Shown here: positions 10,252 to 15,755 of the stretch, one piece after another
Layout: each line of letters opens with the position of its first letter
Numbering within the stretch: the first letter of the stretch is position 1
Virus record (IMG/VR): IMGVR_UViG_3300009709_000001
Location: 1-64,000 of that record
Direction: 5' to 3' (one strand)
Length of the DNA: 64,000 nucleotides
DNA from: a virus
Lineage: Duplodnaviria; Heunggongvirae; Uroviricota; Caudoviricetes
The notes under the pieces: model-generated
Databases searched by the model: none
Seen by the model: the letters and a program-made list of their open reading frames with translations, nothing else
What the model was told of the DNA's origin: nothing
Position numbers and translations under genes: made by a program

Positions 10252-10829
10252 AGTCCCATCCCGCCTTGCATGCCCATGTCTTGTCCGGCACCCTGATCCA
10301 TCCCGCCCTGATCTGGGATTACTGGTTCTTCAGGCTCCGCTGGCATATCTTCTTCAAATGCATCGGCAAGCTCGGCATTTGTATCATCGATGTCCTTTTG
10401 GATGATATCATCATTTTGTGTCATACCACGTTGGATATACTTTAGTGGTAGATCAATTGTTACCAACCAAACTTCATGTTCGACCATCTTTGCACGTTTG
10501 GATTGTGGATCTACCCAATCCTGTGGTCCTTCGACCTTAACTGGCTTCTTGAAAACTCCTTTACGGAAATTAACCTTAGCACCAAGCTTGGTCAAACGCA
10601 GCCCGCCATTTGGATCTGGCATCATTGCATATGGATACATCCATGTAGTCTTATACCAATATCTACCAATTTCTGGGCCTTCTACCAATTCTCCAAGAAT
10701 CCAATTCTTGTAGGCAAAGATTTCAGCATTATCTAGAGTACGCTCAAACTCTAACAACGTGTCGAGAATATTTTCTCCACGCGAAATATTCACAAGCGTT
10801 TGCTTAATACTATCAAGATCTGTAGTCAT
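10248..10829 (-). CDS. Hypothetical protein
   Basis: 193-aa ORF; AAGGA SD; M/G/Q-rich tail. Confidence 0.7.
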   Translation of the reverse strand: MTTDLDSIKQTLVNISRGENILDTLLEFERTLDNAEIFAYKNWILGELVEGPEIGRYWYKTTWMYPYAMMPDPNGGLRLTKLGAKVNFRKGVFKKPVKVEGPQDWVDPQSKRAKMVEHEVWLVTIDLPLKYIQRGMTQNDDIIQKDIDDTNAELADAFEEDMPAEPEEPVIPDQGGMDQGAGQDMGMQGGMGL

Positions 10830-11415
10830 TTAATTCCTTGCAATTTTCAAAATGATAACGCTTCATCGAGCCTCCGGCACCTTCTTTTGAACAATGCGGA
10901 CATTTTACTACAGGCAAGATCTGTCCCTTAAAAGGGCTTTTCCTTCCACGGTTAGCATCACCAATTTTTTTCTTCTTTTCTTCACTGCACGGTCTCATAC
11001 CTGCTATGGAGATTTTATTCTTAGATTCGTCAGAATGCTTCAAACCTTGCGCATTCTTGTTACCTATATTGGCAATAGAAATCTTGTTTTTTGTAGCTTC
11101 TGTTACAACTCTCTGTTTCATTGCTTCAGAAAATCTTTTTCTTAACCAACCAAACATCTTATTATTTCGTATTACAGTATCGGATGATACTGTCATTATC
11201 TTTACTGCTAATACCAAATCTCTATTTTCCGGATACATCTTCATTAACAATTGATGTGCAAGAAAATGTTCCTTAGGAGTCAGAATAGCTATGTTAGATC
11301 TACTATTTGTTCCACCCATGCATTTAGGTACAATATGGTGTCGTTCAGTATAGCCAGAGAGATCACGACTTTTCGATCTTTCAATCAACAAATCATAATG
11401 TTTTCTGTAGTTCAT
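10813..11415 (-). CDS. HNH homing endonuclease with NUMOD3 DNA-binding repeats
   Basis: ERHHIVPKCMGG.N...N...LT.KEHFLAH; HSDESKNKIS and SEEKKKKIG repeats; C-terminal CPHC..HFENCK. Confidence 0.88.
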   Translation of the reverse strand: MNYRKHYDLLIERSKSRDLSGYTERHHIVPKCMGGTNSRSNIAILTPKEHFLAHQLLMKMYPENRDLVLAVKIMTVSSDTVIRNNKMFGWLRKRFSEAMKQRVVTEATKNKISIANIGNKNAQGLKHSDESKNKISIAGMRPCSEEKKKKIGDANRGRKSPFKGQILPVVKCPHCSKEGAGGSMKRYHFENCKELNDYRS

Positions 11416-11622
11416 CGTTACCTCTGTTTTGATTATTTATCTGAAATCTAGGAGTTTCCTAAACTTTCGAAAAAGGTTGGTATTGTAGAGCCTCATTTGC
11501 TCGCTATCGATAAATATCTGTGTATGAAGAATACATTCGATAACTTAATCGATTTCCCCCAAGATGGGCAATACTTGTCCAGTCCACCCTCCAACTCCAA
11601 AAATTCATTAAGGAGCAAAACC

Positions 11623-12366
11623 TTGAGCAAAAACCGCAGAATGGCTTCTAAGCCAACTTCGTTACGTCCTTCTCGTCAGCAAGAAGAACAATCCGCAACC
11701 AACGTTGTCAAGCTCGGCAACAGAAACTATAAAAGAGTTGAGTTGCTCCCAAGAAATATCGCCCAAGAAACTTATGTTGAGGAACTTCTCGACAAGCGCA
11801 TGGTCTTCGCAGTAGGCCCAGCTGGTACAGGTAAAACATTGCTTGCAGTGCTTCGTGCTATCAAGGCATTACGCGAAGGCGAAATTACAAAAATTATCAT
11901 TACACGCCCGGCAGTTAGCGTTGATGAAAAACACGGCTTTTTGCCAGGAGATTTGAATGCAAAAATGGAGCCTTGGACACGCCCAATTTTCGACGTCTTT
12001 GAAGAATACTATGGTTTGCTCACAACTAAGGCAATGCTAGAGGATGGTACAATTGAAATCGCTCCACTAGGATTTATGCGCGGTCGTACATTCAAGAATG
12101 CTTATGTGATTGCAGATGAAATGCAGAATGCAACTCCAGAACAAATGAAAATGCTACTCACACGTATTGGTGAAGGTTCTAGCATGGTTATTACTGGTGA
12201 CCTATTGCAGCACGATCGTGGCTTTGAGAAAAATGGCTTGAAGGATTTCATCGAGCGCTTCCAGAAAGCTAGAAAAGAAACAATGTCAATCTGCTACTTT
12301 GGTAAGCAACACGTTGAACGTGATCCATTAGTTTCCGAAGTCTTAGACATTTACGGCGAAGATTAA
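11623..12366 (+). CDS. phoH: PhoH-family ATPase
   Basis: GPAGTGKT, ITRP.V, GFLPGD, FMRGRTF, DEMQN, TRIG, TGD..QHD. TTG start after AGGAG preferred; ATG at 11524 is an alternative. Confidence 0.93.
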   Translation: MSKNRRMASKPTSLRPSRQQEEQSATNVVKLGNRNYKRVELLPRNIAQETYVEELLDKRMVFAVGPAGTGKTLLAVLRAIKALREGEITKIIITRPAVSVDEKHGFLPGDLNAKMEPWTRPIFDVFEEYYGLLTTKAMLEDGTIEIAPLGFMRGRTFKNAYVIADEMQNATPEQMKMLLTRIGEGSSMVITGDLLQHDRGFEKNGLKDFIERFQKARKETMSICYFGKQHVERDPLVSEVLDIYGED

Positions 12367-12429: not shown

Positions 12430-12786
12430 TTATTTGCTGTTTTTTTCTGCTGCCACAGCGGTTACACGCTCTACAGTAGTAATGTCTCTAAGCTGTCGCT
12501 CATAACGCTCTTTCATTGCAGCTTCGACAGGCGGGAGTCTGCCATTCTTTGTGGCTGCTTGTTTCGCGTCTAATTCAAAGAGCTTGTCCTCGAGCATTTG
12601 TTTGCGAAGGGTTTGCGATGTTTCTTGAATAATTCTCTGCGTTTGGACTTTGTCTTTTTCTACGTCAGCCGCATGTGCATACCTAGCGTCAAGAGTGAAC
12701 AAAGTACCTACAATCGTGATAATTGTACCTGCAGATCCGAATGCAACTTTACCGAGATTATTCTTGCATGTTTCTATAAATGACAT
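12430..12786 (-). CDS. Membrane-anchored coiled-coil protein (possibly lysis-related)
   Basis: N-terminal hydrophobic segment then coiled coil; own TAAATA motif at 12808-12813. Confidence 0.6.
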   Translation of the reverse strand: MSFIETCKNNLGKVAFGSAGTIITIVGTLFTLDARYAHAADVEKDKVQTQRIIQETSQTLRKQMLEDKLFELDAKQAATKNGRLPPVEAAMKERYERQLRDITTVERVTAVAAEKNSK

Positions 12787-12914
12787 ATCAATATCTCCGA
12801 GATATTGTATTTACCGATAAAAGTGAATAATTAACTGAGTATAGTCAGAGCTATGCTTAGAAGAATGTGAACAAAGTGATAAAAGATAAAGCTTTAGTGA
12901 TAAAACCGCTTGTA

Positions 12915-13410
12915 GAACGTGACTGATGGTGGAGTCACAGAAAGGGTATCGTCAAAACAACCACAAAAAAATTTATGGGTTTCGACCCCTCTCTGAATGC
13001 CTGAAAGCATCGCACAGACTGAACATGACCTTAGATAGTGTTGGATTGATTATGTCAACTATATCCCTTCCCAGGGATGTCATGGACGGGCCAGCCGTAG
13101 CTGGTCATTGCATGCCGCTTATTTCAGTCTTTCGCGGCGCAACCTATCGGGCATACCTTTCAATTACATACCGATAGCAAACTTGAATTTTATTGTAATA
13201 CCTACTTCACTCCATTGGGAGGTGTTGTCAACAATCTTGCATTGTTGGGGATATCACAACCATTAGCAGCCTAATGGACATTCCATTGCAGGAATTTTGG
13301 GCAGAGGCAAACCTTCGCGTTTACTTAACCCGGCGAAATATCTATTAGGCTCGCTAACCTTGTATCTGCAGCCAAGAGAAAAGGAGACTGATAGCCTCCT
13401 TGTTTTCTCT
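12915..13410 (-). ncRNA. Candidate large structured non-coding RNA (family not recognised)
   Basis: More than 12 helices found by eye, nested multiloops, cUACGg and GGGA tetraloops on the minus strand, an 8-bp pseudoknot, and no credible ORF. Confidence 0.7.
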
Positions 13411-13412
13411 AA

Positions 13413-13847
13413 TTAAGAAACTGTTGCACTAGTGATGGCAAGGGCAATAGAAGCTGCCCATTTCTTAGAGTCTTTTTCCGTAACTCGGAAATCCCAATTT
13501 GTCGGAGGCACAAAGATACTATCAGTGTCTTTAAATTCACTGCTCTTTTCTGTGTCCATCCAGACAACCCAGTTTGCGTCGACAGTGCCGCGCATTTCTG
13601 GCAAGGGAGCGATAAAATCATAGATGACAAAATCTGTTGCTACATCGGCTGACAAGTCTTTCATCCTTGTTGCTTGACGTAACCTACCCTCTGCTGTGAA
13701 ATCCCAATCATTAGCTGCTCGACGAACATCGTCACCATTGAGCCATGTGGATGTATGACCGGCATTATACAACTGAGTCATCAACTCAGCTGCCAGCATT
13801 GTCTTACCTGTTCCAGACAGGCCCATAATCAAAATACTGATTGTCAT
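13413..13847 (-). CDS. Adenylyl-sulfate kinase-like P-loop kinase
   Basis: GLSGTGKT, WLNGDDVR, DFT.EGR..Q..R, F.PP; start at MTISIL overlaps the upstream stop (TAATG). Confidence 0.8.
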   Translation of the reverse strand: MTISILIMGLSGTGKTMLAAELMTQLYNAGHTSTWLNGDDVRRAANDWDFTAEGRLRQATRMKDLSADVATDFVIYDFIAPLPEMRGTVDANWVVWMDTEKSSEFKDTDSIFVPPTNWDFRVTEKDSKKWAASIALAITSATVS

Positions 13848-14458
13848 TAAGCCTCCACTAGGCCGTATTCTCTGCAGACCATTTCGTAAATTTCTTTCCA
13901 AGGAGTATCGTGACTAACTCTAGGGAACAAATCTGTTTGGAAATGTTCATTATAAGGATGGCTAATAAGAACTGTCTTTAGACCAGCTTCATGACCTGCT
14001 TCGGCTTGACGTGTATGATCTTCAATCCAGAACAAATCGCTACCGCCCCAATTCTCTGCCAGAATGTGAGCTTTACTTTCACCCATCTTTAGGCAATGAA
14101 CTTCTTCGAACACATCACCAAAACGCATCTCGAGATTTTCAGTTCTGTTAATCTTAGCCTGCGGTTCATCACTAATGCTTGTCACAGCGATAAATCGGAA
14201 ACCAAGGGCTGCAATTTTCGGTACATAAATTTCTGCATCAGCAAATGTATCGAGACGCTTCATATAATCGCTATGATTATATTCTTCGATAAATTGACCA
14301 CCTTGTTCGAATGTTATTCCATGGCGTACACCAATGCTGTATTCGTGCATTGTGTTCGGCAACTGTGGATAACCTTTTTCGATCATAAACTCACAGAAGC
14401 CTTCATTCCAGTTAAGTAGACAACCATCTACGTCGGTTAGGATAATTCGTTTTTTCAT
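13847..14458 (-). CDS. HAD-superfamily phosphatase (5'-nucleotidase-like)
   Basis: ILTDVDGCL motif I, VTS motif II, K and WIEDH motifs. Confidence 0.85.
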   Translation of the reverse strand: MKKRIILTDVDGCLLNWNEGFCEFMIEKGYPQLPNTMHEYSIGVRHGITFEQGGQFIEEYNHSDYMKRLDTFADAEIYVPKIAALGFRFIAVTSISDEPQAKINRTENLEMRFGDVFEEVHCLKMGESKAHILAENWGGSDLFWIEDHTRQAEAGHEAGLKTVLISHPYNEHFQTDLFPRVSHDTPWKEIYEMVCREYGLVEA

Positions 14459-15017: not shown

Positions 15018-15755
15018 CTAATTAAATTTATTTTTACCATCATATTTCTTGACATTATCTAACCAAGGTAACATCTGTAAATTTTCCTTGGCACTTATAT
15101 CTTCGATTGATATACCTTGTTCAAAACCTTGCCTCACAGATAATATATGATCAATTTGATATGCATTATCCGTACCGCATTTTCCTAAAGGAAAATTATT
15201 CGGATTTATCTCGCCCTTAAATTGTTCATATATTTTCTTAGTTCTTACGGAGACTCGATTTCTATATTTTCTAAAATTAGAATATACTGGGTCATCCCTT
15301 GATATAATTTCTAAAGATTCTTGTTTCTTCTTGCCTTTGTTCTTATTAGGATGACTTCTTGCAGGGCAAGATATATCTTTCTGTTTTAATGAGTAACTTA
15401 ATATTCGATCATCTGTCTCAGCAGTTAAGCCTGAATTCCACGACGTCTCCCCAAACATAGGATTTTTATCGCCAATTTTCGAATCACTTAACTTTTTTCT
15501 TGTTGAATCATCGACGATACGTCCGGTTAATGATTCTCCGATCTTCCTTCTCCAATCTTCGTTAAGTATTCGGCCACGAGATGAATTTCCTATATTTTCT
15601 TTTGTCTCTTCCGAATGCCAGGGTCCGTTTGCTTTTCGTGATTCAATTCTCCTTGCAATTATAGCAGAGCATTGATCGCTTCTTTCAGAGCAACATAATT
15701 TACCATTTTGAAAAGTCTTAATAGATTCTTTACCACAACCATAACTGCATAACAT
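15018..15755 (-). CDS. NUMOD3 plus C-terminal HNH homing endonuclease
   Basis: C.YGCG N-terminus; HSEETKENIG and G.KNPMFG repeats; YQIDHILSV..GF...NLQMLPW.DN..K. Confidence 0.8.
   Translation of the reverse strand: MLCSYGCGKESIKTFQNGKLCCSERSDQCSAIIARRIESRKANGPWHSEETKENIGNSSRGRILNEDWRRKIGESLTGRIVDDSTRKKLSDSKIGDKNPMFGETSWNSGLTAETDDRILSYSLKQKDISCPARSHPNKNKGKKKQESLEIISRDDPVYSNFRKYRNRVSVRTKKIYEQFKGEINPNNFPLGKCGTDNAYQIDHILSVRQGFEQGISIEDISAKENLQMLPWLDNVKKYDGKNKFN

What the first reader, a model, noticed from the sequence alone, without database searches (positions are those of the whole stretch)
12915..13410. ~500-nt ornate non-coding RNA candidate with multiloops and a pseudoknot
Seen: this is the only long gene-free stretch in an otherwise packed genome, and its minus strand is almost fully pairable. 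Helices read 5' to 3': AGAGAAAA..AGGAG/CTCCT..TTTCTCT; TTGG-GCAGA/TCTGC-CCAA enclosing GTTAG/CTAAT and TTCGC/GCGAA; TTCC/GGAA; CCATTAG/CTAATGG; a 10-bp TTGTGATATC/GGTATTACAA helix (two G-U pairs) enclosing CAACAAT/ATTGTTG and CTCC/GGAG; CTATCGG/CCGATAG; GCCGC/GCGGC; CCAGC-UACG-GCTGG (cUNCGg, 13091-13104); CATGAC/GTCATG enclosing ATCCCT-GGGA-AGGGAT (GNRA, 13063-13078); GTGACT/AGTCAC. The GCCGC loop AGACTGAA (13123-13130) is perfectly complementary to TTCAGTCT (13016-13023), giving an 8-bp pseudoknot. The G-U pairs and both tetraloops favour the minus strand. Known: phages carry large ncRNAs of unknown function such as ROOL and GOLLD. I see no RNase P, tmRNA or group I/II intron signature. Inference: a possibly undescribed large phage RNA (scaffold, decoy, ribozyme or replication-primer RNA).
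Basis: partly seen in the sequence, partly recalled or inferred. Interest (0 to 1): 0.85.

Follow-up and report, generated by a model that had tools for sequence, protein, structure and literature searches.

The report
New large folded RNA, jumbo phages
The gap between the kinase gene and a small membrane-protein gene of this 385-kb phage encodes a roughly 445-base, intricately folded, pseudoknotted non-coding RNA; it belongs to an undescribed family found only in uncultivated giant phages, it has a second old copy in the same genome, and its job is unknown.

Summary
The minus strand of 12919-13361 folds far better than shuffles (z -5.15; plus strand -2.1). It belongs to a family of about 45 distinct sequences from IMG/VR and JGI metagenome contigs. 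On 31 aligned members, 92 proposed pairs are 89% paired (29-40% when slid) and 64 pairs change on both sides. G-U cells outnumber A-C cells 266 to 70, which fixes the minus strand.

No Rfam 15 family matches. The family was not found in 50,697 GenBank phage records, and its most conserved 22-mer is absent from 185,579 bacterial and archaeal species genomes. A covariance model found nothing in seven cultured jumbo phages.

The genome holds exactly two copies. "Type 1" (this one) follows the kinase gene. "Type 2" lies at about 195.0-195.5 kb after the endolysin gene, with an extra 5' domain and a promoter-like motif.

Corrections:
- Two 5' helices are really an H-type pseudoknot.
- The 3' hairpin and both tetraloops are not conserved.

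New and unexplained: two ~20-nt modules in the 3' domain stay identical, not complementary, through at least seven lineage-specific changes.

This scan had already flagged the same family in another 365-kb phage.

The parts
12919..13361 (-). Conserved core of the type-1 RNA (about 443 nt), from the 5' pseudoknot to twin module B
   Evidence: Profile nhmmer hit 12910-13381. CM hit 13017-13183 at 123.7 bits. Alignments A1 and A2. Pair counts.
13374..13410 (-). Terminator-like hairpin after the kinase gene (stem 13381-13401, then TTCTCTT). Not part of the conserved RNA.
   Evidence: Absent from all homologues.
13333..13360 (-). H-type pseudoknot: S1 13357-13360 with 13347-13350; S2 13351-13354 with 13333-13336
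   Evidence: helices 1 and 2: 3 of 4 and 4 of 4 pairs change on both sides. S2 variants GUGC/GCAC, GUAC/GUAC and ACAA/UUGU.
13299..13331 (-). Helix Hb: outer GGG/CCC, inner AAAC/GTTT hairpin with GCGAAG loop
   Evidence: helices 3 and 4 (95-99% paired). Sequence read.
13281..13294 (-). Type-1-specific hairpin TTCC/GGAA
   Evidence: L063 and L066 have ATACC/GGTAT instead.
13260..13277 (-). Hairpin Hc, CCATTAG/CTAATGG
   Evidence: helix 5: 13 sequences with two-sided changes at two pairs.
13193..13259 (-). Hd domain: 10-bp outer helix enclosing two hairpins (three-way junction in type 1, a single hairpin in type 2). Conserved AAGTARG strand before the 3' arm.
   Evidence: helices 7-9.
13144..13177 (-). 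He: 7-bp stem with a nearly invariant 19-21-nt loop (two GGTATG repeats)
   Evidence: helix 10: 100% paired, 7 of 7 pairs change on both sides.
13107..13143 (-). Hf: outer and inner stem. Its loop (13123-13130) is the 5' strand of pseudoknot PK1.
   Evidence: helices 11-13.
13091..13104 (-). Hg: hairpin of variable length (here CCAGC-TACG-GCTGG)
   Evidence: helix 14: 100% paired, 3 of 3 pairs change on both sides.
13024..13084 (-). Three-way junction Hh (13079-13084 with 13024-29) enclosing Hi and Hj. Holds the near-invariant 24-mer at 13037-13060.
   Evidence: helices 15-18. The 24-mer is shared exactly by both copies, and its 22-nt core matches 28 viral contigs exactly.
13016..13023 (-). 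3' strand of pseudoknot PK1
   Evidence: helix 13: 4 of 5 pairs change on both sides.
12996..13018 (-). Twin module A: TCTGTG, then weak hairpin P_A (13007-13011 with 12996-13000) carrying word A (13000-13007) at its tip
12942..12950 (-). Near-invariant GATACCCTT
   Evidence: ATACCCT invariant in 31 sequences.
12919..12940 (-). Twin module B: TCTGTG... word B (12922-12929). The local hairpin 12933-12938 with 12919-12924 is specific to this copy.
   Evidence: (helix 22).
13413..13901 (-). Upstream gene: P-loop kinase (APS-kinase-like), complete
12430..12786 (-). Downstream 118-aa ORF (N-terminal hydrophobic segment, then a charged helical stretch). Conserved after type-1 copies in L061 and L079.

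Best explanation
The minus strand of 12919-13361 is a gene for a large non-coding RNA that acts through its fold. It is the founding 'type 1' member, in this genome, of an undescribed RNA family restricted so far to uncultivated freshwater-type jumbo phages.

Shown:
- About 20 helices and two pseudoknots are kept by compensatory changes: an H-type knot at the 5' end, and a loop-to-strand knot (PK1) spanning the central junction.
- Long single-stranded stretches are nearly invariant.
- This genome holds two diverged paralogues. Another complete 369-kb genome also holds two. A third complete genome holds only type 2.
- Type 1 is transcriptionally joined to the upstream gene. Type 2 has a conserved TGnTAAAAT (extended -10-like) motif after the endolysin terminator, and a convergent gene follows it, so the shared core cannot be a leader for one particular gene.

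Inferred mechanism, about 40% of my belief: the RNA folds into a compact particle that works in trans as an architectural RNA. This would be either an RNA-only assembly or the scaffold of a ribonucleoprotein, as in ROOL and GOLLD. PK1 may be a bridge between molecules. The two identical 'twin modules' may serve as two docking sites for one co-evolving partner.

My belief that it is a real, novel, functional RNA is about 0.9.
For: - Fold energy: z -5.15 on the minus strand, -2.14 on the plus strand.
- A second copy in the same genome was found by nhmmer (E 2e-11) with visible compensatory changes.
- Exactly two copies by profile and by covariance model.
- Family size: 28 viral and 31 metagenome contigs share the core word, about 45 distinct sequences.
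- RNAalifold: 46 of 79 pairs have two-sided changes.
- Curated structure: 89.0% of cells paired against 77.0% in shuffles and 29-40% when slid. 64 of 92 pairs change on both sides. Covariation score 0.385 against 0.163. 0 of 500 shuffles reach any of these measures.
- G-U 266 against A-C 70.
- No consistent ORF: the longest ORFs in the core range from 25 to 105 aa.
- No Rfam family.
- Context of the two types.
- Twin modules: 21 shared non-consensus cells against 4.2 +/- 1.8 in shuffles, 0 of 5000.
- In ROOL and GOLLD, 'pseudoknots' inferred from covariation turned out to be kissing loops between molecules. GOLLD has a conserved 3' region and a variable 5' region, as this family does (PMC12286853).
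- PK1 differs between the two paralogues of one genome. Here it is GACTGAA/TTCAGTC against CGTTGAA/TTCAACG. In G002 it is GACTGAA against ATCTGAA.
Against:
- No partner is known.
- There is no tRNA island beside it, unlike most ROOL and GOLLD loci.
- Orthogonal PK1 sequences in two genomes is a weak argument for pairing between molecules.
- Type 1 has no promoter of its own that I can see, so it could be a processed or unprocessed 3' UTR.
- The family was collected through an exact 20-22-nt word, so the 'invariance' of that word is partly ascertainment. L079, found by similarity, has three changes in it.
- The shuffle control does not remove relatedness of the sequences.
Confidence: 0.6

Rival explanations
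1. It is a ribozyme. The invariant junction strands and pseudoknots would form an active site that cleaves, ligates or otherwise processes RNA, either itself or the many unusual tRNA-like RNAs of this phage. The twin modules would be substrate-like or product-like sites.
For: Large size, several pseudoknots, and near-invariant unpaired stretches (the 24-mer, the He loop, GATACCCTT) are typical of large ribozymes. Earlier first-reader notes list many odd tRNA-framed RNAs in the same genome (I did not check them).
Against: No match to any ribozyme family in Rfam. No complementary guide for the twin words was found in cis. Nothing was tested biochemically. ROOL, GOLLD and OLE share these features without known catalysis.
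Confidence: 0.15
2. It is a decoy or sponge. The folded RNA would display two copies of one word to titrate a host or phage factor, such as an RNA-binding protein, a small RNA or a defence sensor.
For: The two modules are kept identical through at least seven independent changes with no cis partner. One word sits at a hairpin tip and the other appears unpaired.
Against: A sponge does not need about 400 nt of conserved, knotted architecture. The words differ between close relatives, so a conserved host target is unlikely.
Confidence: 0.1
3. It is a cis-acting part of an mRNA: a structured 3' UTR of the kinase transcript, or a leader of the 118-aa gene, that controls stability, processing or translation.
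For: Type-1 cores start 3-45 nt after the upstream stop codon with no visible promoter. The 118-aa gene follows in own1, L061 and L079.
Against: The same core occurs in type 2 behind a terminator and a promoter-like motif, with a convergent gene downstream. L063 and L066 have different neighbours. In own1 a terminator-like hairpin separates it from the kinase gene. About 130 nt of unconserved sequence lie between the RNA and the 118-aa start.
Confidence: 0.08
4. It is a DNA-level element, such as a replication origin, a packaging site, or iteron-like repeats bound by a protein. The hairpins would be incidental or cruciform.
For: The twin direct repeats behave like iterons that co-evolve with a binding protein. 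Other first readers suggested an origin for the second copy.
Against: G-U pairs outnumber A-C 266 to 70, so pairing is maintained on one strand only. The pseudoknots covary. The plus strand folds no better than about 2 sd from shuffles.
Confidence: 0.04
5. It is a degenerate or unusual self-splicing intron or other mobile element, given the homing-endonuclease genes nearby.
For: GIY-YIG/NUMOD3 endonuclease genes lie at 10813-11415 and 15018-15755. Two copies exist per genome.
Against: No group I or II match even at E up to 10. The kinase aligns to homologues to its end, and the downstream ORF is complete and conserved. Each type keeps its own syntenic place in different phages. The core word is absent from 185,579 bacterial and archaeal species genomes.
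Confidence: 0.02

Closest known systems
[quoted passage not shown]
   Same: Large phage-encoded ncRNA of unknown function, found largely in lake metagenomes. It has many helices and pseudoknots, and a universally conserved 3' region with a less conserved or optional 5' region (PMC12286853). Here type 2 has a 5' domain and an A-rich, poorly conserved linker that type 1 lacks.
   Different: No sequence or structure match to the Rfam model. Our RNA is about 445-650 nt, against more than 800 nt for many GOLLD members. It is not next to tRNAs. It occurs as two paralogues per genome. Assembly into a 14-mer cage is untested.
ROOL RNA (Rumen-Originating, Ornate, Large)
   Same: Similar size class (about 500-600 nt), phage-borne, several pseudoknots, no protein partner known. 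ROOL has a covarying loop-strand contact first read as a pseudoknot and later shown to be a kissing loop between chains. PK1 here is of that type.
   Different: No match to the Rfam model. Found in lytic-looking jumbo phages only, and its core word is absent from bacterial genomes, so no prophage copy turned up. Not near tRNA islands. The twin identical modules have no counterpart that I know of.
OLE RNA
   Same: A large ornate RNA with long invariant stretches that works as the scaffold of an RNP.
   Different: OLE is bacterial, membrane-associated through OapA/B/C, and is not found in phages. No Rfam match here, and no Oap-like neighbours.
Large multi-copy RNA of Rak2-like jumbo phages
   Same: An undescribed 0.5-0.7-kb structured RNA present in several old copies per jumbo-phage genome.
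   Different: The covariance model of our central domain finds nothing significant in GAP32, CBB or Munch (best E 0.4). The families are therefore unrelated or beyond detection.

Membership tests
Any Rfam 15 family (4227 models, including ROOL, GOLLD, OLE, HEARO, raiA, RNase P, tmRNA, group I/II introns, 6S) | Score at or above the family's gathering threshold | tested here: not met
   0 matches in the 64-kb window. Only four chance-level hits with E 2-6 in 12700-13600. 0 matches in the second copy and six homologous loci.
Group I / group II intron | Interrupts a host gene whose exons join to a continuous reading frame | tested here: not met
   The kinase is complete relative to homologues. 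The downstream 118-aa ORF has its own start and is conserved.
tmRNA / tRNA-like RNAs | tRNA-like acceptor/T-arm domain (and a tag ORF for tmRNA) | tested here: not met
   ARAGORN finds no tRNA or tmRNA in the window. The CTCCACCA string in own1 is a hairpin loop that varies in homologues.
ROOL / GOLLD (as a functional kind: phage ornate RNAs) | Encoded by phages or prophages | tested here: met
   All members lie on viral or metagenome contigs with phage genes. Own record is a 385-kb phage with terminal repeats.
ROOL / GOLLD (as a functional kind) | Usually adjacent to tRNA islands | tested here: not met
   No tRNA in the 64-kb window. Neighbours are the kinase and 118-aa ORF, or endolysin and baseplate-like genes.
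ROOL / GOLLD (as a functional kind) | Extensive covarying secondary structure with pseudoknots and conserved unpaired nucleotides | tested here: met
   92 pairs, 64 with two-sided changes, two pseudoknots.
ROOL / GOLLD (as a functional kind) | Homo-oligomeric RNA-only nanocage | not testable with these tools
   Needs native gels, mass photometry or cryo-EM of the transcript.
Reverse-transcriptase template RNAs (retron, DRT2-type) with short repeats flanking a template | A reverse transcriptase encoded by the same element | tested here: not met
   No RVT_1 match in the whole 385-kb genome, while controls were positive.

The most novel reading that the evidence does not exclude
This would be a new class of self-organising phage RNA.

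PK1 would be a bridge between molecules that builds a homo-oligomer. Each paralogue would carry its own bridge sequence so that the two do not mix.

The twin modules, which stay identical rather than complementary, would either form an unprecedented parallel, homo-base-paired contact or bind two copies of a co-evolving partner. Identity covariation of this kind is, to my knowledge, not described for any natural RNA.

Alternatively, the fold is a new large ribozyme.
Probability: 0.25. Interest if true: 0.92.

Novelty: categorically new. Interest (0 to 1): 0.8.

Why it matters
Only a handful of large, intricately folded bacterial and phage RNAs are known: rRNAs, RNase P, group I/II introns, tmRNA, OLE, GOLLD, ROOL and raiA. 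Each has opened a field, either in catalysis or, recently, in RNA-only cages.

This family adds a well-supported member with three unusual traits:
- it is confined to uncultivated jumbo phages;
- it is kept as two ancient paralogues in different gene neighbourhoods;
- it carries a pair of modules that co-vary by identity.

With about 45 diverse sequences and a defined 445-nt construct, it is ready for in-vitro transcription, chemical probing and cryo-EM. These would show directly whether quaternary RNA assembly is a general habit of large phage RNAs.

Because the same scan found the family independently in another genome, the sequence-level finding is reproducible.

Tried and rejected
- **GenBank phages.** blastn of own1 and of a type-2 member against 50,697 GenBank phage records gave no match.
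- **Downstream ORF.** tblastn of the 118-aa ORF against the same phage records gave no match.
- **Kinase synteny.** Kinase-anchored search found 14 viral loci with a related kinase. None carries the RNA by single-sequence or profile nhmmer, so the RNA is not tied to the kinase.
- **Bacterial genomes.** The exact core word is absent from genome contigs.
- **Cultured jumbo phages.** Covariance model R1 (184 positions) found nothing in PA5oct, Phosso, Atu_ph07 or RsoM2USA. In GAP32, CBB and Munch the best E was 0.4.
- **Reverse transcriptase.** I searched for one to explain the flanking repeats as a template-jumping signal. None is present.
- **Cis partner for the twin words.** No alignment column is complementary to them. 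The CTGACG loop of the type-2 5' hairpin looked complementary, but it does not change where the words change (L031, L035, L043; read), and type 1 lacks that hairpin.
- **Other readings of the twin modules considered and dropped:** K-turn or C/D-box reading; antisense to 16S rRNA (the target is universally conserved but the words vary); gene-60-type ribosome hop or a 17-codon repeat unit (repeat spacing varies by 1-2 nt and there is no ORF).
- **TAAAATAGT as a general promoter of this phage.** It occurs 12 times against 13.8 expected, so it is not a genome-wide consensus.
- **Literature.** Searches found no description of this RNA or of its 14-nt core word.

Full report
**Setting.** The window is the first 64 kb of a 385,394-bp IMG/VR phage record with direct terminal repeats, judged complete. 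Its clamp loader is 54% identical to that of Pseudomonas jumbo phage PA5oct and 37-45% identical to those of other jumbo phages. Genes around the finding run on the minus strand. A P-loop, APS-kinase-like kinase lies at 13413-13901. A 118-aa ORF lies at 12430-12786. A convergent phoH lies at 11497-12366. GIY-YIG/NUMOD3 homing-endonuclease genes lie at 10813-11415 and 15018-15755. The 626 nt between the kinase stop and the 118-aa start hold only short mechanical ORFs.

- The minus strand of 12915-13410 folds to -168.5 kcal/mol, against -132.9 +/- 6.9 for dinucleotide shuffles (z -5.15). The plus strand reaches only z -2.14.
- Rfam 15 has no match at gathering score anywhere in the window. In 12700-13600 it gives only four chance-level hits at E 2-6.
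- ARAGORN finds no tRNA or tmRNA.

**Relatives.**
- nhmmer of the gap against the whole genome found a second, diverged copy at about 195,060-195,395 on the minus strand (E 2e-11). It shares an exact 24-mer, AGTTGACATAATCAATCCAACACT.
- Compensatory changes were already visible by eye. CTATCGG/CCGATAG becomes CTGTGGG/CCCACAG.
- An exact 22-mer from the shared word matched 28 IMG/VR contigs. A second conserved word added three more. A 20-mer matched 31 JGI metagenome contigs.
- After removing duplicates there are about 45 distinct sequences.
- The word is absent from one genome each of 185,579 bacterial and archaeal species.
- blastn of either type finds nothing in 50,697 GenBank phage records.
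- A covariance model of the central 184 positions finds exactly two copies in this genome and two in a second complete 369-kb genome. It finds one in a third complete 362-kb genome. It finds nothing in PA5oct, Phosso, Atu_ph07, RsoM2USA, GAP32, CBB or Munch.
- Profile nhmmer also gives exactly two hits in this genome.

**Two types.**
- *Type 1* comprises this copy, L061, L063 (which also covers L028), L066, L072, and L079 in the 369-kb genome. It starts 3-45 nt after the stop codon of the upstream gene. In L061 the kinase stop is 3 nt before the core. In own1, L061 and L079 it is followed by a homologue of the 118-aa ORF.
- *Type 2* comprises the second copy here and about 35 others. It always lies after a GH108/PG_binding_3 endolysin gene that ends in a strong hairpin terminator. 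It is followed by convergent baseplate-region genes.
- Type 2 has a further 5' part of about 250 nt. This contains a conserved TGnTAAAAT motif (extended -10-like; this is an inference), two small covarying hairpins, and an A-rich, poorly conserved linker.
- The same core therefore sits in two unrelated neighbourhoods. That argues against a leader or UTR function tied to one gene.

**Structure.** RNAalifold on 19 sequences predicted 79 pairs, 46 of them with two-sided changes. I then wrote a structure by hand on a 31-sequence alignment (A2) and counted pairs.
- It has 92 pairs in 22 helices.
- 89.0% of cells are paired, against 77.0 +/- 0.4% in shuffles and 29-40% when partners are slid by 1-3 columns.
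- 64 pairs change on both sides, against 36.0 +/- 3.3 in shuffles.
- The covariation score is 0.385, against 0.163 in shuffles and 0.06-0.09 when slid.
- 0 of 500 shuffles reach any of these measures.
- The shuffle control ignores relatedness of the sequences, but the slid control does not, and the gap there is large.
- G-U cells outnumber A-C cells 266 to 70, so the pairing is kept on the minus strand only.

*Order of elements, 5' to 3', in window coordinates:*
1. H-type pseudoknot: S1 13357-60 with 13347-50; S2 13351-54 with 13333-36.
2. Hb, 13299-13331.
3. A type-1 hairpin, 13281-94.
4. Hc, 13260-77.
5. The Hd domain, 13193-13259.
6. He, 13144-77. All 7 pairs covary, and its loop of about 20 nt is nearly invariant.
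7. Hf, 13107-43. Its loop pairs with 13016-23 to form PK1.
8. Hg, 13091-104.
9. A three-way junction of Hh, Hi and Hj at 13024-84, holding the 24-mer.
10. A 3' domain with the near-invariant GATACCCTT at 12942-50.

- The first helix (13374-13410) is a terminator-like hairpin with a T-run and has no counterpart in any homologue.
- GTTAG/CTAAT and TTCGC/GCGAA are superseded by the S1/S2 knot.
- The terminal hairpin GTGACT/AGTCAC shows no two-sided change (helix 22) and is missing in L061, the closest relative.
- The GNRA and UNCG loops are confined to own1 and L061.

**An unexplained feature.** The 3' domain contains two modules of about 20 nt in the same orientation, 51-78 nt apart.
- Module A reads TCTGG-YGANRC-YGTCANG. 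Module B reads TCTGAC-TCCNCC-GTCANG.
- Their end pieces stay identical to each other while differing between phages.
- The word GTCA becomes GGTG (L031), CCCA (L035/L052), GGCA (L043/L059), GTGA (L078), GTCG (L055, and independently L063) and GTCC (L027), in both modules each time.
- The 5' piece is TCTGTG twice in own1 and L061, TCTATGG twice in L079, and TCTATAT twice in L066/L072.
- Shared non-consensus cells number 21, against 4.2 +/- 1.8 in 5000 shuffles.
- No alignment column is complementary to the variable positions.
- Word A sits at the tip of a weak hairpin whose stem shows compensatory variants: AAAC/GTTT, ATGC/GCAT, ATAC/GTAT, ATGT/ACAT and AATC/GATT. Its energy is barely better than shuffles. 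Word B appears unpaired.
- Identity covariation implies either one common partner for both sites, or a contact between like bases.
- A second small case supports the like-base idea. The first and last purines of the Hb hexaloop are G..G in 15 sequences and A..A in 11, and never mixed.

**How it most likely works.**
- *Shown:* it is a conserved fold, on one strand, in two paralogues, in phages only.
- *Inferred:* it acts in trans as a folded particle.
- I put about 40% on an architectural role, either an RNA-only assembly or an RNP scaffold. The reasons are these. The closest analogues, ROOL and GOLLD, are phage RNAs whose covariation-defined 'pseudoknots' proved to be kissing loops between chains of a cage. 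GOLLD shares the conserved-3', variable-5' layout (PMC12286853). PK1 has different extended sequences in the two paralogues of each of the two genomes that carry both, as expected if mixed assemblies must be avoided. The twin modules look like two docking sites.
- The remaining belief is about 15% ribozyme, 10% decoy, 8% cis-acting mRNA element, 4% DNA element and 2% intron-like.
- A template-jumping reverse-transcription model for the flanking repeats fails, because the genome has no reverse transcriptase.

**Novelty.** No Rfam family, no published description and no occurrence of the core word in the searchable literature were found. Earlier notes of this same scan reported both types in another 365-kb phage and reached the same verdict (e1-5367134 and e1-5374376). 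First readers also flagged the second copy of this genome (e1-5711635 and e1-5711634). My analysis was done before I read those notes and agrees with them. The two-type anatomy, the S1/S2 knot, the strand test, the absence from cultured relatives and the twin modules are added here. A different multi-copy RNA reported by the scan in Rak2-like phages is not detectably related.

**Limits.**
- There is no expression evidence.
- The family was seeded by exact words, which inflates apparent invariance. L079 shows three changes in the 24-mer.
- The RNA ends are not mapped.
- The 3' domain alignment is the least reliable part.

Noticed in passing
G000:C1:195022-195535 (minus strand), outside the window; L002:1347-1843: Second, 'type 2' copy of the RNA, between the endolysin gene and convergent baseplate-region genes. 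It has an extra 5' domain, an A-rich linker and a conserved TGnTAAAAT motif just after the endolysin terminator.
   Followed up: yes
window 12430-12786 (-): 118-aa ORF with an N-terminal hydrophobic segment and a long charged helical part. It has no Pfam or PHROG family and no match in GenBank phages, yet it is conserved directly downstream of type-1 RNAs in L061 (78% identity) and L079 (60%).
   Followed up: partly
A2 columns for the Hb hexaloop; own2-type sequences (t2 alignment columns 573/578): The first and last purines of the Hb hexaloop co-vary by identity: G..G in 15 sequences, A..A in 11, never mixed. This suggests a homopurine contact.
   Followed up: no
window 13847-13901: The listed kinase ORF (TTG start at 13901) overlaps the upstream 203-aa ORF by 55 nt. 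Homologues align only from about residue 19-23, so the real start is probably further downstream.
   Followed up: no
window 10813-11415 and 15018-15755 (-): Two free-standing homing-endonuclease genes (PHROG 655 / NUMOD3) flank the phoH-RNA-kinase region within 5 kb.
   Followed up: no
type-2 loci, 35-60 nt after module B (e.g. L030, L073, L047; own copy L002 about 1350-1400): A small conserved hairpin with a GAA or GCA triloop (NNNC-GAA-GNNN), followed by conserved ACGAA repeats, lies between the RNA and the convergent gene. It is not a classical terminator.
   Followed up: no
L068 and L032: These two divergent type-2 members replace the 5' pseudoknot sequence wholesale (CATTA/TAATG, ACAC/GTGT with a shared CTTCAG loop). 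In L068 the ATACCC element pairs within a 15-bp perfect hairpin.
   Followed up: no
whole genome (notes of other first readers): The same phage is reported to carry a DUF2828/Ro60-like gene and many tRNA-framed or 'handle plus payload' RNAs. I did not examine these. They could be relevant if the large RNA acts on other RNAs.
   Followed up: no
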